Source of the DNA: a virus
Direction: 5' to 3' (one strand)
Length of the DNA: 45,005 nucleotides
IMG/VR virus record: IMGVR_UViG_3300010962_000004
Positions 27,117-44,838 of this stretch are shown here, one piece after another. How positions within the stretch are numbered: position 1 is the stretch's first letter; every line of letters begins with the position of its first letter. Position numbers and translations under genes: made by a program. The notes beneath the pieces are model-generated. The model was not told the origin of the DNA and made no database searches. It worked only from the letters and a program-made list of their open reading frames with translations.

Positions 27117-27386
27117 CCTTACAACACCTCCCATCTACCTATATCATAGGATAAATGGAATGGATTGTCATTATGAAAAAAGACTACCAATTTTATTGCC
27201 ACAAACTTATGAAAAACTCTTTTTTAATACAATTGTTCGCTATTAAGTATAGTAAGAGTTATTTTTTCTTTTTAATAAGCGAGAATGTAACACTGCTATT
27301 CATTTTGTAACACTTGGGCTGACAACGTATTTATTTTAGAGATTTCTATCAACCCCTTTTATGTGAATAAAAGGAGGGTGAAATTT

Positions 27387-27458
27387 ATGTTACGCATATT
27401 ATTGGTAATTTTCCGTATTGTTTTGCTTCTAATTCAGTTTGTCATCGAGTTTTTCTAA
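27387..27458 (+). CDS. 23-aa hydrophobic mini-protein (MLRILLVIFRIVLLLIQFVIEFF), type I toxin-like
   Basis: Not in the ORF track. The consensus Shine-Dalgarno site AAGGAGGG (27371-27378) lies 8 nt before the ATG. The product is one predicted TM helix. A hairpin follows at 27466-27490. The ORF is on the opposite strand to all neighbouring genes. Confidence 0.5.
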   Translation: MLRILLVIFRIVLLLIQFVIEFF

Positions 27459-27465
27459 TCAAGTC

Positions 27466-27490
27466 GGGCTGTATCTTAATGGTACAGCCC
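27466..27490 (+). terminator. Hairpin downstream of the mini-ORF
   Basis: gggctgta (27466-27473) pairs with tacagccc (27483-27490). The U-tract is poor. Confidence 0.4.
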
Positions 27491-27535
27491 TAGTACCAAT
27501 GTTTTAAATGTCCTTTAATTAGATAGTGATTCTTC

Positions 27536-27570
27536 CTAGCAAAATGTATTTGCTAGTTAGTTTTCTTTAT
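27536..27570 (+). terminator. Second hairpin plus T-rich tract
   Basis: ctagcaaa (27536-27543) pairs with tttgctag (27549-27556), followed by ttagttttctttat. Confidence 0.4.
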
Positions 27571-27594
27571 TGTTTTCTTTATTGTTTTCTTTAG
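27560..27594. repeat. 12-bp tandem repeat gttttctttatt, about 2.8 copies
   Basis: Copies at 27560-27571 and 27572-27583, with a partial copy at 27584-27593. Confidence 0.85.
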
Positions 27595-27625
27595 AGATTT
27601 TGCATATATAGAAGAAACTCGTTTA

Positions 27626-27724
27626 GGTGTACTCTAATTAGAGTACAGTGGTGTACCCTAATTAGAGTACAGTAGTGTGCCCTAATTAGAGTACAGTAAA
27701 GGTGTACTCTAATTAGAGTACAGT
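27626..27724. repeat. Array of four 24-bp repeats, each containing the 20-bp palindrome TGTACTCTAATTAGAGTACA
   Basis: Palindromes at 27628-27647 (perfect), 27652-27671 (1 mismatch), 27676-27695 (2 mismatches) and 27703-27722 (perfect). The period is 24, 24 and 27 bp. Confidence 0.95.
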
Positions 27725-27860
27725 CAAGACCCATGACAATGAAAAAGGAATCAACTAAGGTGTCCCTTAATCAATTCCCGATGATATTAATTTAACATGT
27801 ATAAAACCAAATGCTTTAAAAGGCTTTTTAAATATTTTAAAATTCTTTTTCAATTTTTTT

Positions 27861-28301
27861 CTATATTGTACGTGCAATGTTTAAGTCTAAAGCTAATTTG
27901 TAAAAGGCTTTCCAACGAATTTTATCGTAAGTAGGCGGCGAAATTGGTGGTTGAAATTTAAAACAATAGACTTTCATATCTGTTAAGTATTCGGCATCAT
28001 CAGCCATGTATCTTGTTTCAATTAAGAATCTTTCCATTGGTGGTAGCCTTTTTACAGCACGTTCTATACGCTCACAATATTTACGTCTTGCACTCTTTTC
28101 ATCAACGTTGTAAATGGCCACTGAGCCTGTTTGGTCACTTGTTAAATTGCCTTTACCTCCACCAATGTCATTAATATGTGATGTTGTAGCTGCTTCTTTT
28201 TCTTCAAAAGTTAAATGTTTAAAAATGCGGTATTTTTCTAATTCTCTCTCGACAGCTGCTTGCGTTGCTTTTCTATCTAATTCAGGCAATTCAAAATCCA
28301 A
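27861..28301 (-). CDS. ArpU-family late transcription regulator (sigma-like)
   Basis: LPPMERFLIETRYMADDAEYLTDMKVYCFKFQPPISPPTYDKIRWKAFYKLALDL matches the ArpU family pattern. A TTG start at 28301 follows the Shine-Dalgarno site AAGGGGGAA. It is the last gene before the late region. Confidence 0.7.
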   Translation of the reverse strand: MDFELPELDRKATQAAVERELEKYRIFKHLTFEEKEAATTSHINDIGGGKGNLTSDQTGSVAIYNVDEKSARRKYCERIERAVKRLPPMERFLIETRYMADDAEYLTDMKVYCFKFQPPISPPTYDKIRWKAFYKLALDLNIARTI

Positions 28302-28358
28302 AACAGATTTCCCCCTTCTACAAGAAAGATACCCTGGCATCTACCAGGGCAATTAGTA

Positions 28359-28802
28359 TCAATCTAGTAAATCATCATCATTTTTTGTCTCATTGACATC
28401 TTCAATGGTCATCTGATCAGGCGCTACTGATACGCTACCATCTCCATCAACCTGATATTCAATACCCTCATGCTGTTCCTCAAATTCTTCAATGCTCATT
28501 TGGCTTTGTTCAAGTGAAAGCTTCACATTAAAGCCTGCTTTTGGATATAGTTTGATAGTCTTTTCCTCACTATCACCTTTGGCTTCAAATTTTAGCACGA
28601 CTTTCTTGCTATCGCGCTGAATTGATTTCATCTCTGCAGATAATTTAACATCACCAAGTTCAAGTATTACAATGCTACCTGCCATACCAATTAATTCAGA
28701 TTTATATTGAACATCATCACCCAAGATATGAAACTCTAAAACTTCTTTTTTATCATCCTTTTGTATCTTTTTAAAAAGGACATTTAATTCAACTTTAGCC
28801 AT
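28359..28802 (-). CDS. Hypothetical acidic protein (147 aa)
   Basis: Packed ORF overlapping the resolvase gene end. Confidence 0.5.
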   Translation of the reverse strand: MAKVELNVLFKKIQKDDKKEVLEFHILGDDVQYKSELIGMAGSIVILELGDVKLSAEMKSIQRDSKKVVLKFEAKGDSEEKTIKLYPKAGFNVKLSLEQSQMSIEEFEEQHEGIEYQVDGDGSVSVAPDQMTIEDVNETKNDDDLLD

Positions 28803-29373
28803 TTTTCACACTCTCCATTTCAATTGTTTTATTTCCTAATATCGATTTAACTACCTCTGCTTGATAGACAGGACAACCAATAAAATCAGGTCTATTAAAC
28901 TGGTACATGATTCTTGCAATTTGAGCTAAAATATATGCATCGACAACATTGTCGCTTTTATGTGAGAAGCCAAAATGATCTTTTACAGCTTTCATAACGA
29001 CTTTTTTCTTTTCTGGACCAGTAAGGCGCTTTTTATTCCCTACTCCGCCTGTGAAGCCTGTTACACCTACAAATTTTTTAACAGCATTAGGTGCCACTTC
29101 ATAGTATTTAAATCCTCGTCTAGTTAGAGACATTCGCATTCCCCAACCAATGCCGCCAAGCTGGATGCCCTGCTGTGTTGCAAAACCAAATCCTTCTACA
29201 GTTATGATGTCACCTTTTTGCATATGGGCCATAACTTCGTCAATAAGTGTGATCATTCGGAAAGGATCTTTATCACCTACGCCTGTTAATTCTTTTGCTC
29301 TAAGCACTTGGCCACTTTCATCTAGTGCAACAAATCCTGTTTTAGTTGATGGATCTAAGCCTATGAATCTCAT
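28795..29373 (-). CDS. RuvC-like Holliday junction resolvase
   Basis: N-terminal MRFIGLDPSTKTGFVAL, then VEGFGF and DNVVDAYILA, an acidic catalytic-residue pattern. Confidence 0.65.
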   Translation of the reverse strand: MRFIGLDPSTKTGFVALDESGQVLRAKELTGVGDKDPFRMITLIDEVMAHMQKGDIITVEGFGFATQQGIQLGGIGWGMRMSLTRRGFKYYEVAPNAVKKFVGVTGFTGGVGNKKRLTGPEKKKVVMKAVKDHFGFSHKSDNVVDAYILAQIARIMYQFNRPDFIGCPVYQAEVVKSILGNKTIEMESVKNG

Positions 29374-29401
29374 AATGATTCTCCAAATCTTTTATTTTGT
29401 A

Positions 29402-29998
29402 TCATTCACCCTCTACTTCACGAGCGATGAAAAAATTATTAAAATTATCTTGTACAGGAAGGCCATCTTCTCGGAATTCAGGCGTTGCAGGTTCTACAAT
29501 AAGTTTCGAATTGCATTCATGACAGTGTGCATACACAGTATCTCTAGATACCCAGCGTTTCCCTGTGTGTCCACAATCACACCAATATTTACATTGGTAC
29601 TTGATTTGACCATCTTCAAACTCTTTAGTACCAAAGTGAAGTGGCTCCCTGTCAGAAGCACAATTAATTTTGGCCACTTCACTAATTGGAGCAGTAAGAG
29701 TACGTTCAGCATTTATCTTTGGTAGCACCTTCGATTTTTGCTGATTTCTTTCTTTTTCAATTTTTGGAGGAACTACAACTGCAGAAGTTTTAACATTTTG
29801 AAACGGAACATAATCAGGTGGAGCTTCACCAAGATTTATTAAGGGTTTATTTTTTGGCTTAGAAACGCTGACATTATTTTCGTTCTGTTTTGCGACTCCT
29901 AGCACTCCAAAGAATCCTTCAATAATACTCGTTACATGGTTTTCTTGAATTTCCTCTGCTTTTAAATGTGCATCTTGAACATTAATTTCAATTTTCAT
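29402..29998 (-). CDS. Hypothetical protein with C-terminal Cys/His zinc-binding cluster
   Basis: YQCKYWCDCGHTGKRW...YAHCHECNSKL. Confidence 0.5.
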   Translation of the reverse strand: MKIEINVQDAHLKAEEIQENHVTSIIEGFFGVLGVAKQNENNVSVSKPKNKPLINLGEAPPDYVPFQNVKTSAVVVPPKIEKERNQQKSKVLPKINAERTLTAPISEVAKINCASDREPLHFGTKEFEDGQIKYQCKYWCDCGHTGKRWVSRDTVYAHCHECNSKLIVEPATPEFREDGLPVQDNFNNFFIAREVEGE

Positions 29999-30037
29999 AT
30001 TTACTCCTCCATTTCAATCTAAACAAATCATTTCCTA

Positions 30038-31333
30038 CTATTTATCCAGTTCAATAAACTTCTGTTTCCACCCCATGAAAAGCAATTTAAACTCATTTAT
30101 GCCTATGTCTCGCCCTTTGGCAAAAAACTGTTGAATGACTTTCCCTTGCGGCATTTTGTCAGCTGGATCGTGCCATAAAAATTCCACAACATCAGCGTCC
30201 TGCTCGATGGAAGATGATTCTTTTAGATGTGATAGCTGCGGCTTTTTAACATTGTCACTTTCCCTAGTCATTTGCGATAACATCATGAAGCAACAATTCA
30301 TATCACGCGCTATTTGCTTGGCAGTAGTGGTTACATTTCCAATAGCCTGCGCTCTGGTCTCATTTTTACGTTGAGGAATCTTCATAATCTGCAGATAATC
30401 CACCGCAATCATTGCAATTTGTCCATATCGCTTTTTAAAACGCCTTGCTGTAGCCCTTACTTCCTCGATTGTTACACCTGATGAATCCTGGACAAAGATT
30501 GGTAACTTTTCTAACTCTTTATAAGCAAACTCAATGACGCCTAATTCATCAGGCTTTAAGTCCTTATTTTTTATGCGGCCATATTGAATGCCTGTTGAAT
30601 TTGAAATCATCCGATCAAACAATTGGTACTTGTCCATTTCTTGTGACCAAATTAATACTGGACCACTCTTGGCCACACCCATAATTCTTTGGAGAAGCAT
30701 TGCTGTTTTACCAACACTAGGACGTCCAGCACTAACGAACAACCAACCTCTCCATAGACCATGCGCCCACTTATCGTAGTGTTTAAATCCAGTAGGTATA
30801 AATTCAGCTCGTTTTAAAAGATGTGCAAAATATCCATGACGTGACTCTTTTAAACTTTGCATCTTGCCATCATCTTCGGGCCTTACTTCTGAGGCTAGTC
30901 TTTCAATTTCAGCAAAATAATCATCGTCAGTCTCAAAATCTTCATGTACTAGATTCATAATTTTTTGCCCTATATCTGTTCCACGTCGCCTGATTGCCCT
31001 CGAACGAACAATATTGGCATATGACACGACATTTGCAGCAGTAGGACAGGAAACGGCTAATTCCGCTAAATAAGAAATGCTTACCTCGTCCATTTTGTTA
31101 TGCTGCATGTACAGCTCAGTAACAGTAGTAATATCGATAGGCTGATTTTTATTATCTAGCCATTTCATTACTCTATAAATCTGTTGGTGACGCGCGCTAA
31201 TGAAGTCCCTTGATTCAAGAAAAACAATGTCATCAATCACACTTGGTTCAAGAAAGATTGCGCCTAGCACCGATTTTTCCGCATCAAGTTCGTAATCAGT
31301 TGCTCCAATCAAAGTCATTTGGATCATTCCCAT
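30038..31333 (-). CDS. dnaB: Replicative DNA helicase, DnaB family
   Basis: N-terminal DAEKSVLGAIFLEP, Walker A GRPSVGKTA, then VDYLQIM and SQMTRE patterns. Confidence 0.88.
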   Translation of the reverse strand: MGMIQMTLIGATDYELDAEKSVLGAIFLEPSVIDDIVFLESRDFISARHQQIYRVMKWLDNKNQPIDITTVTELYMQHNKMDEVSISYLAELAVSCPTAANVVSYANIVRSRAIRRRGTDIGQKIMNLVHEDFETDDDYFAEIERLASEVRPEDDGKMQSLKESRHGYFAHLLKRAEFIPTGFKHYDKWAHGLWRGWLFVSAGRPSVGKTAMLLQRIMGVAKSGPVLIWSQEMDKYQLFDRMISNSTGIQYGRIKNKDLKPDELGVIEFAYKELEKLPIFVQDSSGVTIEEVRATARRFKKRYGQIAMIAVDYLQIMKIPQRKNETRAQAIGNVTTTAKQIARDMNCCFMMLSQMTRESDNVKKPQLSHLKESSSIEQDADVVEFLWHDPADKMPQGKVIQQFFAKGRDIGINEFKLLFMGWKQKFIELDK

Positions 31334-32072
31334 CTTGTAACCAACGTTGGAACTCTATTTCTTTATCTCTCGGATCATATTGAGGCTTTTGTTTTGGTTG
31401 AGAAGGTTTTTTATCAGCATTCATTTTTATTGCTAGTTCTACAAACTTATCTCTAAGTTTTTTTGCTGATAAAACGTTGGTGCGCCAAAAGGAATCCTGC
31501 GTAACCCAATCCATGACCTGCTTGGCCAAGTGCTTATCAACTTGATCTATTTCAATTAGCTTTCGCATATCATCAGCCCAAGATTGCATATTGGACTTTT
31601 TGATTAAATGAGATATGCCAGCCTCATTTGCAACTACAGAAACTTTTTCATGAAAGTAGACGGCCATTTTGTAATAAGTATTTTCTTCATCATATTTATT
31701 TTTTTTAACTGGTTTAGTTTGATCAGGGATTTCAGGTTCTACCTCATTAGGTGGAAGCTGTTCATCCCACTCTTTATAATCTTTATTAAATCCCATGATT
31801 CTCGCTCCTTTTGAACCAATTCCAAAAACTGATATTATGTTTCTATCAATCAATGTTGCTAGTTCTCTATTCGTTTGAGTTCTACTGGCATTGATCACCT
31901 TTGCTAAAAAATTTATGGACATTTCATTTGTTTTACGTTGAAAGCCATACGTATATCTCCAAATGGCCAACACTAAACGGAATTGTGTGCCATTGAGATT
32001 AAGCCTCATGATTTCTCCAAGGATTTCATTGGCAATCCGTGTGTGCCCATTTTTGAGTTGTGGATTTGCCAT
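31296..32072 (-). CDS. Phage replisome organizer / replication initiation protein
   Basis: N-terminal NGHTRIANEILGEIMRLNLNGTQFRLVLAIWRYTYGF, typical of the replisome-organizer N domain. Lies upstream of the DnaB gene. Confidence 0.75.
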   Translation of the reverse strand: MANPQLKNGHTRIANEILGEIMRLNLNGTQFRLVLAIWRYTYGFQRKTNEMSINFLAKVINASRTQTNRELATLIDRNIISVFGIGSKGARIMGFNKDYKEWDEQLPPNEVEPEIPDQTKPVKKNKYDEENTYYKMAVYFHEKVSVVANEAGISHLIKKSNMQSWADDMRKLIEIDQVDKHLAKQVMDWVTQDSFWRTNVLSAKKLRDKFVELAIKMNADKKPSQPKQKPQYDPRDKEIEFQRWLQDGNDPNDFDWSN

Positions 32073-32087
32073 GATTACTCACCCTAT

Positions 32088-32312
32088 TCATGCTTTCAAT
32101 TGGCTGCTCATGTATTCAATGAGTTCCTCTGAAAATTCCTCAATATCTTTGCGACTACTACCTGTGTATGGTCTGTTTAACCAATCATCAATGCGATCCG
32201 CAACTGATCCAGTAATACTTTTAGATTGAATGGACTCTAATTGCCTTTTTAGCTCTATGTTTTCAATTTGTAATCTCAACATAGCAGTTAAAATTAATTC
32301 ATATGGATGCAT
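32088..32312 (-). CDS. Hypothetical protein (74 aa)
   Basis: Packed ORF in the replication block. Confidence 0.45.
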   Translation of the reverse strand: MHPYELILTAMLRLQIENIELKRQLESIQSKSITGSVADRIDDWLNRPYTGSSRKDIEEFSEELIEYMSSQLKA

Positions 32313-33055
32313 TAAACAACCTCCAATTCGTAATGATTGCCTGCTTGGTACCCCTTTTTTAATAACTCCCTTTTAACAGTCATTTCCGCAAGCGTAGGGA
32401 GGTTGTTCTTGCTACTTAAATGTGTAAGATAGATTCGTTCGCCTTTGCCTACTACAAGCTCTCTGAGGGCCTTTGCCGTTTGTTCATTTGATAAGTGGCC
32501 AACGTGACTCAAAATCCTTGCCTTAACGCTGTTAGGGTAATCAGAAGCTTCAACCATTCGTGGCTCATGGTTGGCTTCGATAATGTAAATGTCACTATGC
32601 CTCATGGCGTTCAACATGCTTTTATCAACAAGGCCAGTGTCTAAACAAATAGATACTTTAAAATTATCTAGAGTCCATACAACGTACCCTCTTGGATCGA
32701 TTGCATCGTGATGAACATTAAAATGGCTTACTATAAACTGGCCACAACCGAAAACACCACCAACACCAATTGGCCTAATTAATTCATCTTCAACGGTAGT
32801 GATGTTTTTCCATTCACGTTCGCCAGCATACACAGGAATTTTGTATTTATTGGCCAATGGCAGCCCTTTAATATGATCGCTATGTGCATGTGTAACAAAA
32901 ATTGCTTCAACTCTATTTGGCGTTATACCGACTTCCAGTAGCCGTTTCTCTATTTTCGTTTTAGGAATGCCTGCATCGATTAGAATGGTAGTTTCATTGG
33001 TTGTTAAAGCAATACAGTTGCCACTTGAACCACTTGCTAAGATGTCAACTTTCAT
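32312..33055 (-). CDS. MBL-fold metallo-hydrolase
   Basis: VTHAHSDHIKG motif. The start is chosen at MKVDILASGSSGN (the ORF track starts at 33103). Confidence 0.8.
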   Translation of the reverse strand: MKVDILASGSSGNCIALTTNETTILIDAGIPKTKIEKRLLEVGITPNRVEAIFVTHAHSDHIKGLPLANKYKIPVYAGEREWKNITTVEDELIRPIGVGGVFGCGQFIVSHFNVHHDAIDPRGYVVWTLDNFKVSICLDTGLVDKSMLNAMRHSDIYIIEANHEPRMVEASDYPNSVKARILSHVGHLSNEQTAKALRELVVGKGERIYLTHLSSKNNLPTLAEMTVKRELLKKGYQAGNHYELEVV

Positions 33056-33278
33056 GCGAGTCACCAACATATAGAGGTGGAGCTTTTCGCATAATGTTTG
33101 CAAAAAAACCTATACCTTCACCTAATGCATAAACTTTAATGCAATCTCTATCCATTCCGTAACGTAAAGCTATAAGAGTATCGTCAGCATTTCTGTAAGT
33201 TTCAAGGCGTTCGTTCTTTTCAAAAGCTTCTTTGGCTTCCTCCATAAAATCAAGATGCTCCCTATAAATTTGAGTCAT
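33045..33278 (-). CDS. Hypothetical protein (77 aa)
   Basis: Packed ORF whose start overlaps the stop of the upstream mini-ORF (ATGA). Confidence 0.45.
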   Translation of the reverse strand: MTQIYREHLDFMEEAKEAFEKNERLETYRNADDTLIALRYGMDRDCIKVYALGEGIGFFANIMRKAPPLYVGDSHES

Positions 33279-33418
33279 TTCTTCCCCTCCAACTCCTTAT
33301 GGCACCGTGAGCATATTTCACGCCCACGGTACAAGTTGTATTCATTTTCATTCATTTCTCGCCCACACAGCTTACAATCCTTATTTCTCTCACAAACTAT
33401 TATTTGTGGTAGTTTCAT
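33275..33418 (-). CDS. Small zinc-ribbon protein (47 aa)
   Basis: Not in the ORF track. Translation: MKLPQIIVCERNKDCKLCGREMNENEYNLYRGREICSRCHKELEGKK. It fills the gap between recT and the next ORF and shows stop/start coupling. Confidence 0.5.
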   Translation of the reverse strand: MKLPQIIVCERNKDCKLCGREMNENEYNLYRGREICSRCHKELEGKK

Positions 33419-33423
33419 AGTTT

Positions 33424-34302
33424 TTACTCGAGTAAATCGGCATCATTTGACTGTGAAGCTAACATTTCGATATTCATATTTAGTAGCTCAATTAAGCCAA
33501 CTAGTTCAGATTCCGTAGCTGTTGTAGGATCAATGCCTGGTGCATTTTTATCCAGGTATTCTTGCATAGCCTTTTTCGTTGTAATACCAAGTTGTTTAAA
33601 CTTTGCTTTTACTTCCTTGAGTAATTCGTCTGAGCGAGTTAATACAGGCTGTCCAATAGGTGCCTCTATTTGCTCCTGGGTAGGTGTAATATCCCTGCGT
33701 GTTTGCGTAGCAGGTTGAGGTACATCATTTTGGGAAATCGTTACATCCTCGAATGACAAACCGTATTGCTTTTTCAATGCACGTTGCTGAACATGCTTGC
33801 CAAACATGTCACTTGTCCACTTGTTCCAGTTGTCTTTATTTTGGCCTGTGAACATATGAGCGACTTCGTCAATGTCCATAATGACCGTTACAGGTGGATA
33901 GCCCTCACGATAGGCAACTGAATAGGCACCAATAATCTTTCCACGTGGGAAGCCAATCTCGTGTTGAATCACTTCCATTTGCTTTGTTTCTTTATTCATA
34001 GCGATTTTAAATTCATCGTTTTCATGCACCATTTGTGTATCAGGTGGGATAAAGCCCTCTTGTTCACGTGCTTTTGAAAGGTAGGCCTCGGCAGCAAATT
34101 GAATACGTGCTTGATTGCCATACTTGATGAAGAAAATTTCATTTTTGAATGGATCTAAGCCATATGAAGCAGCCTTATGAGCAAATAATAGAAATTCTTG
34201 ATCATTAGCTGTAGGTGCAATCGAATTGCGAATGACCTCTAACACTGCAGGTTGAAAAGCTTCTGCAATTTCAGGTGTTAATGTTGGTAAGTTTCTGTTC
34301 AT
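33424..34302 (-). CDS. recT: RecT-family single-strand annealing recombinase
   Basis: FLLFAHKAASYGLDPFKNEIFFIKYG and following patterns, typical of RecT. Confidence 0.85.
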   Translation of the reverse strand: MNRNLPTLTPEIAEAFQPAVLEVIRNSIAPTANDQEFLLFAHKAASYGLDPFKNEIFFIKYGNQARIQFAAEAYLSKAREQEGFIPPDTQMVHENDEFKIAMNKETKQMEVIQHEIGFPRGKIIGAYSVAYREGYPPVTVIMDIDEVAHMFTGQNKDNWNKWTSDMFGKHVQQRALKKQYGLSFEDVTISQNDVPQPATQTRRDITPTQEQIEAPIGQPVLTRSDELLKEVKAKFKQLGITTKKAMQEYLDKNAPGIDPTTATESELVGLIELLNMNIEMLASQSNDADLLE

Positions 34303-34499
34303 TAATAGCGTACCTCCGTAAATTTATTAAGGCCGTTTTTGACCTGTTTTTTCATACTTTCATAAGCTTTGTCGTAAAGTGCGTCAACATCTTGCCCTGG
34401 CTCTACTGAAATGGTTACTGCAGCATCTACTTTCACATTTTCAAAGTTTCCTAGATTTTTGGTATATGTGTAACCAACTGTGATTTCTTTAGCGTTCAT
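34302..34499 (-). CDS. Hypothetical protein (65 aa)
   Basis: Packed ORF in the recombination block. Confidence 0.45.
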   Translation of the reverse strand: MNAKEITVGYTYTKNLGNFENVKVDAAVTISVEPGQDVDALYDKAYESMKKQVKNGLNKFTEVRY

Positions 34500-34519
34500 T
34501 CAAATGGCCTCCCCTTTTA

Positions 34520-34855
34520 TCAATCTTCACTCACTCGCAATTGATTACTTGTTATACTACTGCCGCCAAAACATAAATTTCCGTCATCACAAATTAATAG
34601 CAATTCATCTGTAGTAAGATTAGGACCATTTTTAATGATGTTGTACTTCGAGTGTGCATAACCTGGCTCTCTACCAATGACAACGTCATAGTTTTCCAAA
34701 TCAACATCTGGAGTAAATCTTAAATTATGTCTAAAAATCTTGTATTTTTCCTTTAGTTCATCATGAATTTCACGGTTTATTCTTCCCTTTTCTCTTTCAT
34801 TTTCTGTAAATGCCCATCCGTTATAAATTCGCTTCTCCACTTGTTTTTCGCTCAC
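34520..34855 (-). CDS. Hypothetical protein (111 aa)
   Basis: Abuts the ATPase gene stop codon. Confidence 0.45.
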   Translation of the reverse strand: MSEKQVEKRIYNGWAFTENEREKGRINREIHDELKEKYKIFRHNLRFTPDVDLENYDVVIGREPGYAHSKYNIIKNGPNLTTDELLLICDDGNLCFGGSSITSNQLRVSED

Positions 34856-36376
34856 TTATTTTTCCTCGCTTTCGAAAGTTAAGTCTTGTCCAGCAACAAC
34901 ACGGCTGATTATGAGTTGTCCATTCGGTTCCTTAAACTTAGTAATGGTTTCTGCATTATCTACAAAGCAAGGTACGATAAGATCACTTTGCCCTGATAAG
35001 ACATCTCGAACTTCAAGGCCAGCTCTAGTTTGTTCACTAAATGAAAGTTTCATATAGTCTTTGCCATCCATTTGGACAATGAAGGTTGGTTTATTGTCAC
35101 CTGTTGTTTTCACTTCTTCGAACAGTTTTATTGATAAATTTTCGAATAAGTCTTGAACCTTTTTGACTTGTAATTCTGCCTCTTTTGCCTTGAAATCCTT
35201 AATGGTATCCAGGATAAAAATGGACTCATTAAGTGATTCAAGCGTTTCTTTTTCATTAGCTTCTGCAGCATTAACTTGTTCCTCTAAGAACTTATACTCC
35301 CTATGTTTAGAGATCTCATATTCTATTGGACTTATCTTCTCTTGAAGCGAACGCGCTTTTTCCATTTGCTCAGATACGTCCACGTATTCAAGTGTTTTAA
35401 GTTCTTCTTCTAATGCTTTCCGTTCATCTACAACTTTTTGGAATTTCGATTTTACTTGTTGAATACGTTGCTCTTTTTCTGCCTCTACAGCATCAATAGC
35501 TTCATCTTGTAACGTTTGGTGACAAACACGGCAAGTATCTTGTATAGGTTCGTTTTTTAGCTGATTAAAGGTTTCTTTGATACGATCACGTTCTGTTGTC
35601 AAAATTTGAATTTCGGTATGAAGCCTGTTTATTCGGCCATTTGTTTCCTGTGCTTTATCAGTCACAGCCTCTATAGCATTTCGTTCTTTAACAAGCTGGT
35701 TTAATTCCACATTTAGCGAGTCTAAAGGAACTGTGGGAGCATTTTTTTCTAACTGCTCTCGTAACGTCTTGGTACGACTCTGAGCACCTATATATTGTTT
35801 GTCCAACTTAGTTTTATTGGATCGATGAATCTTATCTAAATCCTCTAAAGAATGCTTTTTGACTAATGTGGCCAACTTGTCCGATTGTGGTTTAGAAAGC
35901 TCTTTTAATACTTCTTTATTTGCAGGTGCAGTCGTATATTTTAAAATCATTTGACGCTGTTTTTCCCAATGCAATGTGAAGAAATAACTTGGATTAAACA
36001 GCGATAAAAATAAATCTTTATCAAATAGCTTTTCCACTACCTCGTTAAATTCAGTTGCTTTGGAAGGTACCTCATTTACATAGAACTTATTACGACCTTT
36101 CACAATTTCACGGCCAAGTAGTAGCTCTCCATCTTCAACACTTAATAACAATGTCACAAGCGTATTCTCTGCTTGATACGTTACTGGTGAAGGATCAAGT
36201 TTGCTCCCCACCAGGTCAGTACCGTATAATAAGAATGTAATTGCTTCACCAATGGAGCTTTTACCTTTTGCATTATCTGCGAGGATCTTAGTCATGTCGC
36301 CAAACTTAACTACTAGATCCTTGTGGCTTTTGAAATTCTGCAAGGTTAATTGATTGAATTTTATTTCCATTTTCAT
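34856..36376 (-). CDS. AAA/SMC-Rad50-SbcC-like ATPase with a long coiled coil
   Basis: N-terminal LTLQNFKSHKDLVVKF...DNAKGKSSIGEAITFLLYG (Walker A), a central coiled coil with a CxxC hook-like motif (CRVCHQ), and a strong Shine-Dalgarno site GGGAGG. Confidence 0.75.
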   Translation of the reverse strand: MKMEIKFNQLTLQNFKSHKDLVVKFGDMTKILADNAKGKSSIGEAITFLLYGTDLVGSKLDPSPVTYQAENTLVTLLLSVEDGELLLGREIVKGRNKFYVNEVPSKATEFNEVVEKLFDKDLFLSLFNPSYFFTLHWEKQRQMILKYTTAPANKEVLKELSKPQSDKLATLVKKHSLEDLDKIHRSNKTKLDKQYIGAQSRTKTLREQLEKNAPTVPLDSLNVELNQLVKERNAIEAVTDKAQETNGRINRLHTEIQILTTERDRIKETFNQLKNEPIQDTCRVCHQTLQDEAIDAVEAEKEQRIQQVKSKFQKVVDERKALEEELKTLEYVDVSEQMEKARSLQEKISPIEYEISKHREYKFLEEQVNAAEANEKETLESLNESIFILDTIKDFKAKEAELQVKKVQDLFENLSIKLFEEVKTTGDNKPTFIVQMDGKDYMKLSFSEQTRAGLEVRDVLSGQSDLIVPCFVDNAETITKFKEPNGQLIISRVVAGQDLTFESEEK

Positions 36377-36602
36377 AATCCTCCCGTACCCTATTAAACT
36401 TTTTCCACTCTTCTGGAAACGTATATTGTTGATCTATCATTTGAACAACAATAAAATCATCTCCATCTACTACACGTACCTCACGAAACAACTTACTTTG
36501 CAACTGCGTATAACGGAACACTTCCTCTGCATCGTTTAACATGACAGCAGGCGTATGCCATTCTCCATCACCAGGTACAGGAAAACAATATCCTTTAAAC
36601 AT
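36306..36602 (-). CDS. Hypothetical protein (98 aa), 3' end overlaps the ATPase start
   Basis: ATG after the Shine-Dalgarno site GAGGTGA. The roughly 70-nt overlap makes the 3' end uncertain. Confidence 0.45.
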   Translation of the reverse strand: MFKGYCFPVPGDGEWHTPAVMLNDAEEVFRYTQLQSKLFREVRVVDGDDFIVVQMIDQQYTFPEEWKKFNRVREDYENGNKIQSINLAEFQKPQGSSS

Positions 36603-36606
36603 TCGT

Positions 36607-36735
36607 TCACCTCTTTTCCATCACAATGTGACCAAGTTGCCAGGCCTCTACAAATTCATGAAACTCCCAACCTTTATTGACAAGGTCGTGTTTTACAAAA
36701 TAATCCCCCAGGACTTCTAAAAGACAATCATTCAT
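36607..36735 (-). CDS. Small hypothetical protein (42 aa)
   Basis: Not in the ORF track. The Shine-Dalgarno site AGGTGA lies 5 nt before the ATG. Translation: MNDCLLEVLGDYFVKHDLVNKGWEFHEFVEAWQLGHIVMEKR. Confidence 0.45.
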   Translation of the reverse strand: MNDCLLEVLGDYFVKHDLVNKGWEFHEFVEAWQLGHIVMEKR

Positions 36736-36744
36736 TTATATCAC

Positions 36745-37017
36745 CTACTTCAACTCAATTTCAGTGATTAATTTTTTAGCTTCTTCGGGGCTTAAAATGA
36801 GCTTGCCGCCTAGTAAAACGAAATTGTCATCTGAGACTTCACCAGTAACCGCACACGCCATATCAGGCTTGTATTTTTTTAGAATTACTCCACCGTCACG
36901 GTCTGTAAAAATTTCTAATGGATCTCCTTCTGCAATTTCCAAAGTTCTACGAATTTCCTTTGGGATAACCACACGTCCTAAATCATCGATTCTACGAACA
37001 ATTCCTGTTGCTTTCAT
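36745..37017 (-). CDS. AbrB/SpoVT-family DNA-binding protein (AbrB-like transition-state regulator homologue)
   Basis: MKATGIVRRIDDLGRVVIPKEIRRTLEIAEGDPLEIFTDRDGGVILKKYKP closely follows the AbrB N-terminal swapped-hairpin domain pattern. Confidence 0.85.
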   Translation of the reverse strand: MKATGIVRRIDDLGRVVIPKEIRRTLEIAEGDPLEIFTDRDGGVILKKYKPDMACAVTGEVSDDNFVLLGGKLILSPEEAKKLITEIELK

Positions 37018-37634
37018 TTTGTTTTCTCCTTTCGATTAAGAGCGCCCATTTTTGTATAGATATTTGCAATTACAACACCTGTCTTAGTAAGCTCAGGATC
37101 TAGATGAAATAATTTATTTTGATTCATCCTTGCTAGCTGCGCTCGAGTAATTAACTGTAAATTTTCTAGTGAAATATTAAGTTTGTTTTGATCAAGAAAA
37201 ATTAGAACATGACCTTTTGGTATTGGACCATTTGCCTTTTCCCATACCACCTTGTGTTTATGTCTCCATCTTTCATGCCAAGTACCTGAGTCAGAAACTT
37301 TAATTAATACGTAACCGTCACGGTCAATTCGCTCAGTACCTACAGGTTTATAATTCTTTGGCGTATCCCCTTTTTTGAAAGAAGTGCGATTGCCTCCCAC
37401 GTTGTAAAGCCCTTTTGTACCTTTATTAACAGGTGTACTACCTTTTTCAAATTGTCCTGTACGACCACTAGTAATATTGTGATTTGTCAAACAAGCTTTT
37501 AATTGATTCATGTTGATATTTAATTGAAATTCTTGATTGAGCAAAATTAGCAGATCTATTTGACTATTTGATGGATAATGCTTACGTAAAAATTCTTTTT
37601 GCTCATGTGTCCAGGTATGACGCAATAACCTCAC
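37014..37634 (-). CDS. HNH endonuclease (HNH_3 type, free-standing)
   Basis: RIDRDGYVLIKV...HKHKVVWEKANGPIPKGHVLIFLDQNKLNISLENLQLITRAQ. Confidence 0.8.
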   Translation of the reverse strand: MRLLRHTWTHEQKEFLRKHYPSNSQIDLLILLNQEFQLNINMNQLKACLTNHNITSGRTGQFEKGSTPVNKGTKGLYNVGGNRTSFKKGDTPKNYKPVGTERIDRDGYVLIKVSDSGTWHERWRHKHKVVWEKANGPIPKGHVLIFLDQNKLNISLENLQLITRAQLARMNQNKLFHLDPELTKTGVVIANIYTKMGALNRKEKTK

Positions 37635-37867
37635 CCTTTCAGCAATTTTGGCTTTTCAGCATCGAGATTTAATCTATCTGGATTGTCATAAAATTTTTGA
37701 GCTTGTAACACTAAGGAACCGTTAGAGATAATTTGATTTGCTACGCTTGTAACAGCCTTAGCTCTTTCAATTTCCTCCGTTAATTTATTACCAACCAAAT
37801 CTTCATCACTCAATCGCTCGAGCTGTGCAAATAAATGATTGTTTAAATCACCTAGTGTGTTTTTCAT
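37631..37867 (-). CDS. Hypothetical protein (78 aa)
   Basis: Packed ORF with overlapping stop and start codons. Confidence 0.45.
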   Translation of the reverse strand: MKNTLGDLNNHLFAQLERLSDEDLVGNKLTEEIERAKAVTSVANQIISNGSLVLQAQKFYDNPDRLNLDAEKPKLLKG

Positions 37868-38208
37868 TCATCCTCTCTTCCTTTCACTGGCAGATCAAAC
37901 CACTTGGCAACAGCTAACATGCCACCTAAAAAGTCTTTTTCGAACATAATGTCAGATTGTGAATACTTGTCGTAGAAGTAATTAAATTTTTCTACTGGTG
38001 TTTCATTTACTTCATAACCGATATATAAAGCGCGTGTGAGCATATCTAAACTGATACTGTTTAATGCTCGATTATGGTCTAACAACCATCCTTCTGGTTT
38101 TGTAACATGAGCATAAATAATCGCTTCATTACTAAAAGTTCTAGTAACATGATCAAGAGCATCTGCAACCTCGCGACTAACCTTCACCTTGTCCATTAAA
38201 GGCACCAT
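37864..38208 (-). CDS. Hypothetical protein (about 110 aa)
   Basis: Packed ORF. The start may be ATG 38196, after AGGATGGTG. Confidence 0.45.
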   Translation of the reverse strand: MVPLMDKVKVSREVADALDHVTRTFSNEAIIYAHVTKPEGWLLDHNRALNSISLDMLTRALYIGYEVNETPVEKFNYFYDKYSQSDIMFEKDFLGGMLAVAKWFDLPVKGREDE

Positions 38209-38212
38209 CCTT

Positions 38213-38437
38213 TCAACTAGTTATTTTCATGAACAGCTCACGATCATTATTAGCAAGAGCCATATCGATCAAATGTTGGCGGTTCATTTCTTCGATTTCA
38301 TTTACAAGATTGATAGTATTTGGATTTAAGAGAATGCCATCTTCCTTAATCAAATGTCCTTCATTTACAGCCATTTCAATAGCTTTAGCAGCTGCTGCTC
38401 TGAATAAGTCCTCAAATAACTGAATCACCCCTACCAT
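38213..38437 (-). CDS. Hypothetical protein (74 aa)
   Basis: Packed ORF in the early block. Confidence 0.4.
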   Translation of the reverse strand: MVGVIQLFEDLFRAAAAKAIEMAVNEGHLIKEDGILLNPNTINLVNEIEEMNRQHLIDMALANNDRELFMKITS

Positions 38438-38691
38438 TTAATAGTTAGACCTAAACCTGATAAATGTTTGCTAGTTGTATAGCCATTCTCTTTTAATGTC
38501 TGTTGGAATATAGCAACGATTTGCTTATTAGTATTGTGGTAATACGTATACTCACAAAGACCTTTCTCAGCTTGATTTTCAATGCCTTTTATAAGGTTTT
38601 TGAAATCATCACTTTGCAATGCATCAGCCTTTAATTTGTCAAAGTTGCTGACACTTACTTTTTTCATCTCAGCTGCAGGTTGTAGTTTCAT
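38431..38691 (-). CDS. Hypothetical protein (86 aa)
   Basis: ORF divergent from the plus-strand gene at 38750. Confidence 0.45.
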   Translation of the reverse strand: MKLQPAAEMKKVSVSNFDKLKADALQSDDFKNLIKGIENQAEKGLCEYTYYHNTNKQIVAIFQQTLKENGYTTSKHLSGLGLTIKW

Positions 38692-38717
38692 TTTTATTCC
38701 TCCTTATATTTCCTTTC

Positions 38718-38726
38718 TGTTAAACT
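38718..38726 (+). promoter_or_regulatory. Extended -10 promoter (TGtTAAACT) for the 38750 gene, inside the duplicated 18-mer cctttctgttaaactatt
   Basis: The same 18-mer occurs at 38712-38729 and 40764-40781, each 20-25 nt upstream of a plus-strand start codon. Confidence 0.5.
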
Positions 38727-38749
38727 ATTGGTAGAAAGGTGGTGTTAAC

Positions 38750-39097
38750 ATGGCTATAGAAACACATGAAAATAAATACTTAAAAAATTGTTTGAGATGC
38801 AATCATGAAATTACTGATTTAACTGAAGATCACATTTATTGCACTCAATGTGGTTCACCTATTCGTAATGAATGTACTGGAACATTATCTTTCATTGAAG
38901 ATATCAATGAACTACCAGAACATGATTTTGAAGGTGAAGATGAGTTCGTTCTAGAACCAGATGCTGCATATTGTCCAAAATGCGCTTCACCATCTCTTTT
39001 CAATCAAGAACAATTAATTGAAGTACGGTATGCAACAGTTGAAATGGTTAAACAAACTGGATTTAAGATTAGTGAAGAGGATGAAATTCCGTTTTAG
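38750..39097 (+). CDS. Double zinc-ribbon protein (115 aa), plus-strand gene embedded in the minus-strand early block
   Basis: CLRCNHE...CTQCGSP and CPKCASP motifs. Shine-Dalgarno site GAAAGGTGG. Confidence 0.6.
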   Translation: MAIETHENKYLKNCLRCNHEITDLTEDHIYCTQCGSPIRNECTGTLSFIEDINELPEHDFEGEDEFVLEPDAAYCPKCASPSLFNQEQLIEVRYATVEMVKQTGFKISEEDEIPF

Positions 39098-39224
39098 TAA
39101 CCGTATTTAGTTCCAGTTTTGTCCCACAGCGTGTGCAGTATTTAGCTTCTGGTATGTGAAATTCTTTACTGCACACGTTGCATTTACATTGCATTGTTTC
39201 AGTAGGCATAATTTTTGTTCCCAC
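39069..39224 (-). CDS. Small zinc-ribbon protein (51 aa), convergent with and overlapping the 38750 gene
   Basis: Not in the ORF track. GTG start 8 nt after GGAGG. Contains QCKCNVCSKEFHIPEAKYCTRCGTKL. Confidence 0.5.
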   Translation of the reverse strand: MGTKIMPTETMQCKCNVCSKEFHIPEAKYCTRCGTKLELNTVTKTEFHPLH

Positions 39225-39242
39225 TCAATCAACCTCCAAATA

Positions 39243-39277
39243 GTTTGATAGATTTACTTTGTTTGATAGATTTACTT
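39243..39277. repeat. Tandem 17-bp repeat gtttgatagatttactt x2 (period 18)
   Basis: Exact copies at 39243-39259 and 39261-39277, in an intergenic gap. Confidence 0.9.
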
Positions 39278-39335
39278 TTGACGTGCTGATACTGCTTTCT
39301 TTAATGCTTCACCGACTAATACGACTGGAACTGGT

Positions 39336-39551
39336 TTAATTTTCATTTGGTTTCACCTCGCACCAATCTTTGTCCACAGGATCTAAAAAATAGTTTTTAT
39401 CATTAACCACATAAAAAGGTATTTCTCCAAATCTCGAACCTGCGACTGGAAATATCACTTCCATACCATCCAATACATCTACGTGGTTTCCTAATGCCTT
39501 TTTGACACTTAGAGGCGCATGTTGCTTAAAGAGTTTTTTGCTAAACCGCAT
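39336..39551 (-). CDS. Hypothetical protein (71 aa)
   Basis: ORF in the early block. Confidence 0.45.
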   Translation of the reverse strand: MRFSKKLFKQHAPLSVKKALGNHVDVLDGMEVIFPVAGSRFGEIPFYVVNDKNYFLDPVDKDWCEVKPNEN

Positions 39552-39624
39552 TTCTTCGCCAACTTTCTCAACATCAATTGCTTGTCCTCATCCGACATTG
39601 CTAGCCATTTTAGGTTGGTTGTGT

Positions 39625-44778: not shown

Positions 44779-44805
44779 TACCAGTTAAAATAACTGGTGC
44801 TATAT

Positions 44806-44838
44806 TGGTGTTAAACTGGTGTTAAACTGGTGTTAAAA
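44806..44838 (+). promoter_or_regulatory. Three tandem (T/C)TGGTGTTAAA repeats, candidate integrase arm-type sites (P arm)
   Basis: 11-mers at 44806-44816, 44817-44827 and 44828-44838, about 30 nt after the int stop codon. Confidence 0.5.

What the first reader, a model, noticed from the sequence alone, without database searches (positions are those of the whole stretch)
27626..27724. Four phased 20-bp perfect or near-perfect palindromes in the large non-coding gap before the late genes
TGTACTCTAATTAGAGTACA occurs four times (27628, 27652, 27676, 27703; 0 to 2 mismatches) with a 24/24/27-bp period. The copies sit inside 24-bp direct repeats, in the 726-bp gap between the ArpU-like late regulator gene and the first late gene. 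Palindromes this long and this regularly phased suggest cooperative binding of a dimeric protein. Candidates are a late-gene activator or repressor, a partition (parS-like) or origin element, or a packaging recognition site. On the late transcript the array would instead form four consecutive 8-9-bp hairpins. No annotated gene explains it. A 12-bp tandem repeat (27560-27594) and an 8-bp inverted repeat (27536-27556) lie next to it.
Basis: seen in the sequence. Interest (0 to 1): 0.65.

Follow-up and report, generated by a model that had tools for sequence, protein, structure and literature searches.

The report
Relocated lambda-type phage replication origin
The four phased palindromes are most likely the binding sites of the prophage's own lambda-O-like replication initiator, so they mark the phage replication origin, a familiar kind of element that here lies about 3.6 kb downstream of the initiator gene instead of inside it.

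Summary
TGTACTCTAATTAGAGTACA occurs four times (0/1/2/0 mismatches, spacing 24/24/27 bp) and nowhere else in the window.

The array is one part of a conserved module: four boxes, a ~30-bp spacer, three A/T-rich 12-mers and an 8-bp hairpin. I found this module in more than 25 Bacillaceae phages and prophages.

Box arms differ between phages. They track neither ArpU (100% identical protein with different boxes) nor the terminase.

They track the winged-helix DNA-binding region of the lambda-O-like replication protein RepO (31296-32072, - strand). Over 8,199 comparable positions, the only fixed differences between type-A and type-B phages are 23 in the array and 7 in RepO codons 53-67.

In a Sporosarcina prophage (RepO 62% identical) and in remote homologues, the same kind of boxes and the same A-rich TAAAGAAA tract lie inside the O-like gene. 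That is the position of ori in lambda.

Best explanation (about 0.8): a lambda-type iteron origin that has moved out of the initiator gene to the boundary between early and late genes. The ArpU-operator, cos/pac, parS and RNA-hairpin readings are disfavoured.

The parts
27625..27724 (.). Array of four iterons (20-bp palindromes at 27628-27647, 27652-27671, 27676-27695 and 27703-27722; core CTAATTAG, arms TGTACT/AGTACA). These are the proposed binding sites for RepO dimers.
   Evidence: Searches confirm the copies; 23 of the 30 fixed type-A versus type-B differences fall here; homologous boxes lie inside the repO gene in L140, L102 and L103.
27595..27624 (.). Conserved spacer between the iterons and the 12-mers (GAGATTTTGCATATATAGAAGAAACTCGTTTA). 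It contains a TATA-rich element. Its function is unassigned.
   Evidence: Conserved in all module copies.
27560..27594 (.). Three tandem A/T-rich 12-mers (GTTTTCTTTATT on the + strand; TAAAGAAAACAA on the phage sense strand). This is the proposed DNA-unwinding element.
   Evidence: 2.8 copies, 100% match. (GC 20%, AT skew -0.69). The TAAAGAAA tract follows the in-gene iterons of homologues. Lambda has an A-rich tract in the same place and with the same polarity.
27536..27556 (.). 8-bp-stem palindrome CTAGCAAA-ATGTA-TTTGCTAG at the far end of the module. It is comparable in position to the palindrome after the A-rich tract of ori lambda.
   Evidence: Conserved in most module copies but absent in YPHTV-1 and L004.
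31296..32072 (-). repO: a lambda-O-like replication initiator (Phage_rep_O winged-helix N-domain, DnaD-like C-domain). It is the proposed reader of the iterons.
   Evidence: PF04492, E 8e-20. (28% identity to lambda O, E 1e-20). (AF2 winged helix). No repeats or box copies inside the gene.
31872..31916 (-). RepO codons 53-67: the first helix of the helix-turn-helix plus the N-terminal part of the recognition helix. This is the only other place in 8.2 kb that differs consistently between box types.
   Evidence: I53T, A57T, V59A, S63N, T67V. Searches place these residues in the helix-turn-helix.
30038..31333 (-). DnaB-type replicative helicase gene, overlapping the end of repO. It is the presumed client loaded at the origin.
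   Evidence: DnaB and DnaB_C domains.
27746..27779 (-). Intrinsic terminator after arpU (15-bp stem that needs G.U pairs only on the - strand, followed by TTTTT). It borders the origin module but is not part of it.
   Evidence: In Mimir87 and 1020A, inserted DNA separates it from the boxes.

Best explanation
The array is the iteron part of the prophage's replication origin.

Proposed mechanism:
1. Dimers of the lambda-O-like initiator RepO (31296-32072, - strand) bind the four dyad-symmetric boxes through their N-terminal winged-helix domain.
2. The boxes are phased about two helical turns apart, so the bound dimers form an O-some-like nucleoprotein complex.
3. This complex destabilises the adjacent A/T-rich 12-mer repeats (27560-27594).
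4. RepO's DnaD-like C-domain recruits the phage DnaB-type helicase (30038-31333) to the opened DNA.

What is shown here:
- the anatomy of the module;
- its conservation across phages;
- sequence-level homology to in-gene origins of related O-like genes;
- exclusive co-variation of the box arms with the RepO helix-turn-helix.

What is inferred: binding itself, unwinding, helicase loading and actual initiation at this site.

Unlike lambda, the origin is not inside the initiator gene. It lies about 3.6 kb downstream, between the arpU terminator and the late genes.
For: 1. Anatomy matches ori lambda.
- Lambda has four 18-bp dyad-symmetric iterons starting 20/24/23 bp apart, then an A-rich tract, then a palindrome, all in the sense direction of O (PMC7466680).
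- The window has four 20-bp palindromes 27/24/24 bp apart, then the A-rich TAAAGAAAACAA x3, then a palindrome, in the sense direction of repO.

2. RepO is a lambda O homologue over its whole length: 28% identity, E 1e-20; PF04492.

3. Co-variation with RepO is exclusive.
- I projected 5-9 type-A/A' loci and 6 type-B loci onto the window.
- Over 8,199 comparable positions (27528-39642), only 30 are fixed between the types: 23 in the array and 7 in RepO codons 53-67.
- The RepO changes are I53T, A57T, V59A, S63N and T67V plus one synonymous change.
- Loci L036 and L046 carry type-B boxes and the type-B RepO helix. Their DnaB, RuvC, orf147, ArpU and RepO C-domain are 95-100% identical to the window's.

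4. The changed residues sit in the DNA-reading part of the protein.
- The AF2 model (41-sequence alignment, N-domain pLDDT about 88-91) gives a winged helix with helices at 53-59 and 64-76 and a beta-hairpin wing at 80-95.
- Sequence and fold matches are to MarR-type winged-helix proteins.

5. The pattern extends to other lineages.
- Asn63 goes with arms that start CG: type B, Spoks, L028, L137, L145, L146, Heyndrickxia L138 and YPHTV-1.
- Ser63 goes with AG or GG arms. Gly63 goes with AGACC.
- More divergent RepO proteins have different cores but keep the 24-bp phasing: 1020A, L062, and L142 with CCACGTGG.

6. There is direct homology to in-gene origins.
- Sporosarcina prophage L140 (RepO 279 aa, 62% identical) has GGTGTACTCTAATCAGGGTACAG-type boxes at 24-bp spacing inside the repO linker, followed by AAGAAAGAAAGAACTAAAGAAAGAATTAAAGA.
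- L102 and L103 (28% identical) have the same arrangement.
- Seventeen metagenome homologues carry arrays of 18-30-bp period (21-24 bp in most) directly after, or within, the N-domain coding part.

7. The window's repO contains no repeats and no box copy. The array is therefore the only candidate RepO target in the window.
Against: - There is no experimental evidence of binding or initiation.
- The location outside the initiator gene is atypical for the lambda O family.
- Within each phage the arm on the window's + strand right side is better conserved than the left arm.
- In lineages D and F the boxes are hardly palindromic, with 4-7 of 10 pairs. A symmetric dimer model does not fully explain this.
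- The left half of the arpU-proximal box, with its AAGGTG flank, is conserved across phages whose other arms differ. This is unexplained and could reflect a second function.
- The co-variation rests on related, recombining genomes. The number of truly independent events is modest: A versus B, plus roughly 6-8 further lineages.
- The array lies just upstream of the late genes, so an added or alternative transcriptional role of RepO binding is not excluded.
Confidence: 0.8

Rival explanations
1. The boxes are RepO-binding sites, but their main job is regulatory rather than replication initiation. Examples would be coupling late transcription to replication, blocking read-through into the late genes, or acting as a secondary site like SPP1 oriR. 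The true origin would then be elsewhere or would need no iterons.
For: The array lies between the arpU terminator and the late genes. A TATA-rich conserved element follows the boxes at class-II-activator-like spacing on the - strand. In SPP1 the initiator binds a second site outside its gene (PMC5737612). The conserved AAGGTG-TGTACT half of the arpU-proximal box hints at a second reader.
Against: The array always travels with the A/T-rich 12-mers. The same two-part unit is the in-gene origin in homologues. No other repeat array or box copy exists in repO or anywhere else in the window.
Confidence: 0.08
2. The boxes are operator sites for the ArpU-family late activator and form an activator-dependent late promoter.
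For: ArpU-family (Ltr) proteins activate late operons by binding direct repeats downstream of their own gene (PMC3753634). The array lies downstream of arpU and upstream of the late genes. A -10-like TATATA or TATAAT sits 17 nt past the last box on the - strand.
Against: ArpU is 100% (L021) and 99% (L019) identical to the window's protein, yet those loci carry type-B arms. There is no fixed A/B difference in arpU. [quoted passage not shown] In the window that position is occupied by other A/T-rich repeats at 27815-27859. In Mimir87 and 1020A, inserted DNA of 0.4-0.6 kb separates arpU and its terminator from the boxes.
Confidence: 0.05
3. The array acts as RNA: four consecutive hairpins on the late transcript, or on an antisense transcript, serving as a terminator, antiterminator, processing site or small RNA.
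For: The perfect palindromes would fold. The arms change between phages in a compensatory-looking way, for example ACTCT/AGAGT versus ACGCT/AGCGT versus GTCTCT/AGAGAC. The terminator scan flagged one box.
Against: No Rfam family matches beyond chance palindrome hits to miRNA models. Mismatches give G.U on one strand in some copies and on the other strand in others. Lineages B, D, F and Spoks keep the phasing and the direct repeats with only 4-7 of 10 complementary pairs. The arms co-vary with a protein's recognition helix. In-gene homologues are translated as a protein linker.
Confidence: 0.03
4. The array is a packaging (cos/pac, TerS-binding) or partition (parS) site.
For: It lies upstream of the terminase genes. 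The large terminase subunit is gpA/lambda-type. In lambda, cosB has repeated sites for the small terminase subunit (from my own knowledge of lambda, not tested here).
Against: In Spoks and Mimir87 the mapped cohesive ends are 1.3-1.7 kb from the homologous array. Identical type-A boxes occur with a TerL only 31% identical and with no detectable TerS homologue (L017/L033). The prophage encodes an integrase, and I found no ParAB genes.
Confidence: 0.02

Closest known systems
ori lambda of phage lambda and lambdoid phages (O protein, O-some)
   Same: The initiator is homologous over its whole length (PF04492). Both have four dyad-symmetric iterons of 18-20 bp phased about 20-27 bp apart. Both have an A-rich, strand-biased tract on the downstream side, followed by a palindrome, with the same polarity relative to the initiator gene.
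   Different: Lambda's origin lies in the middle of gene O and is translated as the O linker. Here it is intergenic, about 3.6 kb and five genes downstream of repO, after arpU. The iteron sequence is unrelated to lambda's. There is no lambda-P-type loader; instead the phage carries its own DnaB-type helicase, and the RepO C-domain is DnaD-like. The A/T-rich part is organised as three exact 12-mers.
In-gene origins of related Firmicute O-like initiators (Sporosarcina prophage L140; metagenome loci L102, L103, L107, L119, L089)
   Same: The box family is the same (GTACTCTAATnnGnGTAC) at 24-bp spacing, followed by a tract rich in TAAAGAAA.
   Different: Those arrays are inside the initiator gene, and their RepO is about 20 aa longer. 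The window's clade has a short linker and an external module that also carries a terminal hairpin.
Bacillus phage SPP1 oriL and oriR (G38P replisome organiser)
   Same: It is a Firmicute phage. Its initiator binds repeated boxes next to an A/T-rich unwinding element. One of its two binding regions, oriR, lies outside the initiator gene (PMC5737612).
   Different: G38P belongs to a different family (pfam09524). The functional oriL is embedded in gene 38. The boxes are not 20-bp palindromes. I did not test homology to SPP1 here.
Binding repeats of late activators of the Ltr family (RinA, ArpU)
   Same: They are repeats located between the late-regulator gene and the late operon (PMC3753634).
   Different: Those are 7-nt direct repeats directly after the ltr gene and before its terminator, and they are specific for the activator. 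Here the array is beyond the terminator and does not track ArpU.

Membership tests
Lambda-O-type iteron replication origin | Three or more phased repeats of about 18-20 bp, each with internal dyad symmetry | tested here: met
   Four copies with 8-10 of 10 complementary pairs and spacing 24/24/27. Lambda's iterons start 20/24/23 bp apart.
Lambda-O-type iteron replication origin | A cognate initiator of the Phage_rep_O family is encoded in the same genome | tested here: met
   PF04492, E 8e-20. 28% identity to lambda O, E 1e-20, over the whole length.
Lambda-O-type iteron replication origin | The initiator binds the iterons specifically | tested here: inconclusive
   There is no binding assay. 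Indirect support is strong: the only fixed A/B differences in 8,199 positions are in the array and in RepO codons 53-67, which map to the helix-turn-helix. Further lineages are consistent.
Lambda-O-type iteron replication origin | An adjacent A/T-rich unwinding region on the downstream side | tested here: met
   Three 12-mers with GC 20%, A-rich on the sense strand. The same TAAAGAAA tract follows the in-gene iterons of homologues.
Lambda-O-type iteron replication origin | The origin lies inside the initiator gene, in the linker between the N- and C-domains | tested here: not met
   repO contains no repeats and no box copy. The array is 3.6 kb downstream. The in-gene arrangement is present in L140, L102, L103 and 17 metagenome homologues.
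Lambda-O-type iteron replication origin | The element supports initiator-dependent replication initiation | not testable with these tools
   This needs an ori-plasmid assay, marker-frequency analysis or 2D gels.
Ltr/ArpU late-activator operator | [quoted passage not shown] | tested here: not met
   The array lies beyond the arpU terminator at 27779-27746. Other repeats at 27815-27859 occupy the published position.
Ltr/ArpU late-activator operator | Repeat sequence is specific for the cognate activator | tested here: not met
   Identical ArpU occurs with type-A and with type-B arms. There are no fixed differences in arpU.
cos / terminase recognition site | Coincides with, or adjoins, the virion DNA ends and tracks the terminase | tested here: not met
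   The Spoks and Mimir87 cos overhangs are annotated 1.3-1.7 kb from the array. The same boxes occur with unrelated terminases.
Structured RNA (tandem hairpins or terminators) | Base pairing is conserved across relatives, with strand-consistent G.U pairs | tested here: not met
   Only 4-7 of 10 pairs in types B, D, F and Spoks. Wobble pairs fall on inconsistent strands. No Rfam family matches.

The most novel reading that the evidence does not exclude
Placing the origin at the early/late boundary may be functional rather than accidental. In this clade of Bacillaceae temperate phages the lambda-type origin was moved out of the initiator gene to sit directly between the arpU terminator and the late promoter region. 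O-some assembly and late transcription could then control each other. For example, ArpU-driven transcription could activate the origin, as PR transcription does for ori lambda. Alternatively, RepO occupancy could gate late-gene expression until replication has fired. The box half that is conserved across all phages, with its AAGGTG flank, would be the site of a second factor.
Probability: 0.15. Interest if true: 0.6.

Novelty: new variant of a known kind. Interest (0 to 1): 0.42.

Why it matters
- It assigns a function to a conspicuous unannotated element in a family of Lysinibacillus, Psychrobacillus, Virgibacillus, Heyndrickxia and Peribacillus phages. In the GenBank records of Spoks, Mimir87, SDFMU_Pfc and YPHTV-1 the stretch carries no annotated feature; in 1020A it is overlaid with small hypothetical ORFs.
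- It gives a clean natural experiment on initiator-iteron specificity. Five amino-acid changes in a winged helix go with a defined change of the iteron arms.
- It documents, with an in-gene 'missing link', that a lambda-type origin can move out of its initiator gene.
- In practice it defines a candidate minimal replicon (27536-27724 plus repO and the helicase gene) for hosts that have few genetic tools.
- It warns against reading repeats downstream of ArpU/RinA genes as activator sites by default.

Tried and rejected
- **ArpU operator.** Rejected: ArpU is identical across box types.
- **cos/pac site.** Rejected: the mapped cos ends of Spoks and Mimir87 are elsewhere, and the terminases are unrelated.
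- **Immunity operator.** I looked for box or half-site copies in the cI/cro/antirepressor region and found none.
- **Search for any other co-varying protein.** I compared every window ORF against 28 loci. Nothing but the RepO N-domain tracked the box type.
- **Rfam scan of the gap.** Only sub-threshold miRNA-model hits caused by the palindromes.
- **DnaA boxes.** Not enriched; none in the module.
- **Host-regulator motifs recalled from memory** (Spo0A, parS, cre, LexA, TnrA, GntR-type). No convincing match, so not pursued.
- **Single-sequence AF2 model of RepO.** Useless, with pLDDT 45. The run with a 41-sequence alignment worked.
- **Type-C loci (L011, L014, L024).** They could not be assigned a RepO because the held DNA stops before repO.
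- **L059 and L060.** No module was found within the DNA held.

Full report
**1. The observation**

- TGTACTCTAATTAGAGTACA lies at 27628, 27652, 27676 and 27703 with 0/1/2/0 mismatches and 24/24/27-bp spacing.
- A search allowing 3 mismatches finds only these four copies, against 0.00 expected by chance.
- The 8-bp core CTAATTAG occurs nowhere else in the 45-kb window.
- Tandem Repeats Finder reports a 24-bp period with 4.0 copies. It also reports the neighbouring 12-mer GTTTTCTTTATT, 2.8 copies at 100% match, at 27560-27593.
- The inverted repeat at 27536-27556 is real.

**2. Genome context**

The prophage genes run on the - strand.
- The integrase and an ImmR-like repressor/protease pair lie at 42.6-44.8 kb.
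- Next comes an early operon that includes a Phage_rep_O initiator (repO, 31296-32072), an overlapping DnaB-type helicase (30038-31333), a RuvC-like resolvase and an ArpU-family regulator (27861-28340).
- The 726-bp gap follows.
- After the gap come two small ORFs, the small terminase subunit and a gpA-type large terminase subunit.
- A strong - strand intrinsic terminator (27779-27746) follows arpU and ends about 25 bp before the first box in the phage direction.

**3. The array is part of a conserved module**

Similarity searches found the region in four phage records:
- Lysinibacillus phage SDFMU_Pfc (about 99% identical);
- Psychrobacillus phage Spoks;
- Virgibacillus phage Mimir87;
- phage vB_Bacillus_1020A.

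I then scanned public collections for the 12-mer triplet and fetched contigs that encode RepO homologues. This gave more than 25 copies from viral contigs, metagenomes and genomes of Lysinibacillus, Psychrobacillus, Peribacillus, Heyndrickxia, Virgibacillus, Bacillus infantis and Metabacillus.

Read on the window's + strand, every copy has the same order:
1. a hairpin, CTAGCAAA-n-TTTGCTAG (missing in two copies);
2. three or four A/T-rich 12-mers;
3. a conserved spacer of about 30-45 bp;
4. four (rarely five) boxes at 23-24-bp spacing, with a slightly longer last interval.

The 12-mers, spacer and hairpin are nearly constant between phages. The box arms are uniform within a phage but differ between phages. 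Examples:
- TGTACT|CTAATTAG|AGTACA (type A, the window);
- GACG|CTAATTAG|CGACA (type B);
- GGTCT|CTAnnTAG|AGACC (type E);
- TGTACTCCAnnTGGGTACA (Peribacillus).

In Mimir87 and 1020A, 0.4-0.6 kb of inserted DNA separates arpU and its terminator from the boxes. The unit of boxes, 12-mers and hairpin stays intact.

**4. Which protein reads the boxes?**

*Not ArpU.* Loci L021 and L019 encode ArpU proteins 100% and 99% identical to the window's, yet they carry type-B arms.

*Not the terminase.* Locus L017/L033 has boxes identical to the window's, next to a TerL only 31% identical and with no TerS homologue. The annotated cohesive ends of Spoks and Mimir87 are 1.3-1.7 kb from their arrays.

*Not an immunity protein.* No box or half-site lies in the immunity region.

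*RepO fits.* A comparison of every window ORF with 28 loci showed no whole protein that tracks box type. The RepO alignment, however, showed a short segment that does.

I tested this formally. I projected 5-9 type-A/A' loci and 6 type-B loci onto window coordinates and asked where the two groups differ consistently.
- Among 8,199 comparable positions (27528-39642), only 30 are fixed differences.
- 23 of them are in the array (27625-27719) and 7 are in repO (31873-31915).
- The repO changes are I53T, A57T, V59A, S63N and T67V, plus one synonymous change.

L036 and L046 illustrate the point. They have type-B boxes and the type-B RepO segment. Their DnaB, RuvC, orf147, ArpU and RepO C-domain are 95-100% identical to the window's. 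Two segments about 4.2 kb apart have therefore been co-inherited through recombination that shuffled everything between them.

**5. The co-varying residues are in the DNA-reading surface**

An AlphaFold2 model built with a 41-sequence alignment has pLDDT of about 88-91 for the N-domain. It gives a winged helix: helices at 10-23, 28-41, 53-59 and 64-76, and a beta-hairpin wing at 80-95.
- Residues 53, 57 and 59 lie in the first helix of the helix-turn-helix.
- Residue 63 caps the recognition helix, and residue 67 lies within it.

A profile search of solved structures aligns RepO 47-96 with the helix-turn-helix and wing of a MarR-family regulator (E 0.009). The fold search returns MarR-type winged helices and a DnaD model.

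The correspondence extends beyond types A and B.
- Asn63 goes with arms that start CG. This holds in type B, Spoks, L028, L137, L145, L146, the Heyndrickxia prophage L138 and YPHTV-1.
- Ser63 goes with AG or GG arms.
- Gly63 goes with AGACC.
- RepO proteins only about 57-65% identical have different cores but keep the 24-bp phasing.

**6. It is the origin, by homology**

RepO is homologous to lambda O over its whole length: 28% identity, E 1e-20.

In lambda the origin lies inside gene O. It consists of four 18-bp imperfect inverted repeats starting 20/24/23 bp apart, each bound by an O dimer. An A-rich tract and then a palindrome follow (PMC7466680).

The window's module has the same parts, in the same order and with the same polarity relative to repO. 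Its A/T-rich 12-mers have GC 20% and are A-rich on the sense strand.

Relatives of RepO still keep the module inside the gene.
- In 17 metagenome loci, arrays of 18-30-bp period (21-24 bp in most, several clearly dyad-symmetric, 3-6 copies) begin right after, or within, the N-domain coding part. In the five loci I read (L107, L119, L089, L077, L104) an A-rich tract follows, with TAAAGAAA motifs in three of them.
- A Sporosarcina prophage (L140) has a RepO 62% identical and 21 residues longer than the window's. Its repO linker carries boxes of the window's own family at 24-bp spacing, for example GGTGTACTCTAATCAGGGTACAG. They are followed by AAGAAAGAAAGAACTAAAGAAAGAATTAAAGA.
- Two loci with only 28% identical initiators show the same arrangement.

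The window's repO has a short linker, no internal repeats and no box copy.

The simplest reading is that the whole origin (iterons plus unwinding element) was moved out of repO in this clade. It now lies at the junction between early and late genes.

**7. Mechanism, and what is shown versus inferred**

Shown here:
- the anatomy of the module;
- its conservation;
- exclusive co-variation with the RepO helix-turn-helix;
- homology to in-gene origins.

Inferred from the lambda and SPP1 paradigms (PMC7466680; PMC5737612):
1. RepO dimers fill the four iterons cooperatively and wrap or bend the DNA.
2. The adjacent 12-mers melt.
3. The DnaD-like C-domain brings in the phage DnaB-type helicase.

Open points:
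- The + strand right arm is better conserved than the left arm in every phage.
- In some lineages the boxes are barely palindromic.
- The arpU-proximal box keeps a TGTACT half and an AAGGTG flank even in phages whose other arms differ.
- The roles of the conserved spacer and of the terminal hairpin are unknown.
- No DnaA boxes accompany the module.

**8. Rival explanations**

- *ArpU operator.* This is the natural guess, because Ltr/ArpU proteins bind repeats downstream of their own genes (PMC3753634). Those sites are 7-nt direct repeats immediately after the gene and before its terminator. In the window that slot holds different A/T-rich repeats at 27815-27859. The boxes do not track ArpU.
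- *RNA hairpins.* This reading fails on the weakly pairing lineages and on the lack of strand-consistent wobble pairs. No Rfam family matches.
- *Packaging or partition site.* Both are contradicted as set out in section 4.
- *Regulatory role of RepO binding.* A purely regulatory role, or a dual role, cannot be excluded. It is the basis of the more novel reading I give.

**9. Novelty and verdict**

The element belongs to a well-known kind: the iteron origin of a lambda-O-type initiator. The unusual feature is its position outside the initiator gene, several genes downstream.

I found no description of this arrangement for these phages in the searchable literature. In the deposited phage records the stretch carries no annotated feature, except in 1020A, where it is overlaid with small hypothetical ORFs.

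I rate it a new variant of a known kind, of moderate interest. It is an ordinary function, with a neat specificity co-variation and an evolutionary relocation supported by an in-gene intermediate.

Noticed in passing
window 27388-27459 (+), with hairpin 27462-27493: A 23-codon, very hydrophobic ORF (MLRILLVIFRIVLLLIQFVIEFF) with a strong ribosome-binding site (AAAGGAGGGTGAAATTT-ATG) and a downstream hairpin, antisense to the phage late genes. It looks like a type I toxin. Phage 1020A has a similar small ORF (MTSIEVILLLVLLTKCIKITVIVKK) beside its origin module (L054, within 3250-4460, opposite strand).
   Followed up: no
window 27135-27535, and L003 3073-3741: The stretch between the origin module and the first late gene varies between otherwise near-identical phages. 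SDFMU_Pfc has a 222-aa ORF there instead of the window's sequence. This looks like a hot spot for insertion of accessory ('moron') genes.
   Followed up: partly
window 27815-27859: A/T-rich direct repeats (21-bp unit, 2.1 copies) lie immediately after the arpU stop codon and before its terminator. This is the position where ArpU/Ltr binding repeats were mapped in other phages (PMC3753634). Two or three alleles of this stretch exist among relatives, so it is a candidate for the true ArpU site.
   Followed up: partly
window 27780-27814 (- strand), with terminator 27779-27746: A conserved block GCATTTGGTTTTATACATGTTAAATTAATATCATCG precedes the arpU terminator in most relatives (a recognisable but diverged form in Spoks, Mimir87 and 1020A). 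It may be a promoter followed at once by a terminator. Its function is unknown.
   Followed up: no
window 27699-27712; L001 around 1518-1535; L002 around 1875-1892: The arpU-proximal box keeps the half-site TGTACTCTAATTAG (window, Spoks, Mimir87, L028), and a G-rich AAGGTG-like flank precedes that box in nearly all lineages, even where the other boxes have different arms. This is unexplained and may mark a second binding factor.
   Followed up: partly
window 136-157 and 44792-44837: 11-bp tandem repeats lie at both ends of the window, next to the integrase gene: TTGGTGTTAAA x2 and AACTGGTGTTA x4. They may be integrase arm-type sites or att-flanking repeats.
   Followed up: no
L137-L146, gene two upstream of repO; window 32312-33103 (-): The MBL-fold gene upstream of repO in relatives hits PF23023 (Anti-Pycsar_Apyc1). 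The window ORF 32312-33103 is 85-98% identical to the corresponding gene in the closely related Lysinibacillus-type viral-contig loci. It may be an anti-defence nuclease that degrades cyclic nucleotides.
   Followed up: no
L093 10331-10401 and 16181-16246: One metagenome relative has a 24-bp-period array inside its O-like gene and a second, different palindromic 24-bp array about 6 kb downstream. This could be a two-origin arrangement like SPP1 oriL and oriR.
   Followed up: no
window 31296-32072 (RepO): The window's RepO is 100% identical to a protein annotated 'gp45' of Lysinibacillus capsici on a 3.6-Mb contig (P0004). The window therefore probably comes from a L. capsici prophage.
   Followed up: partly
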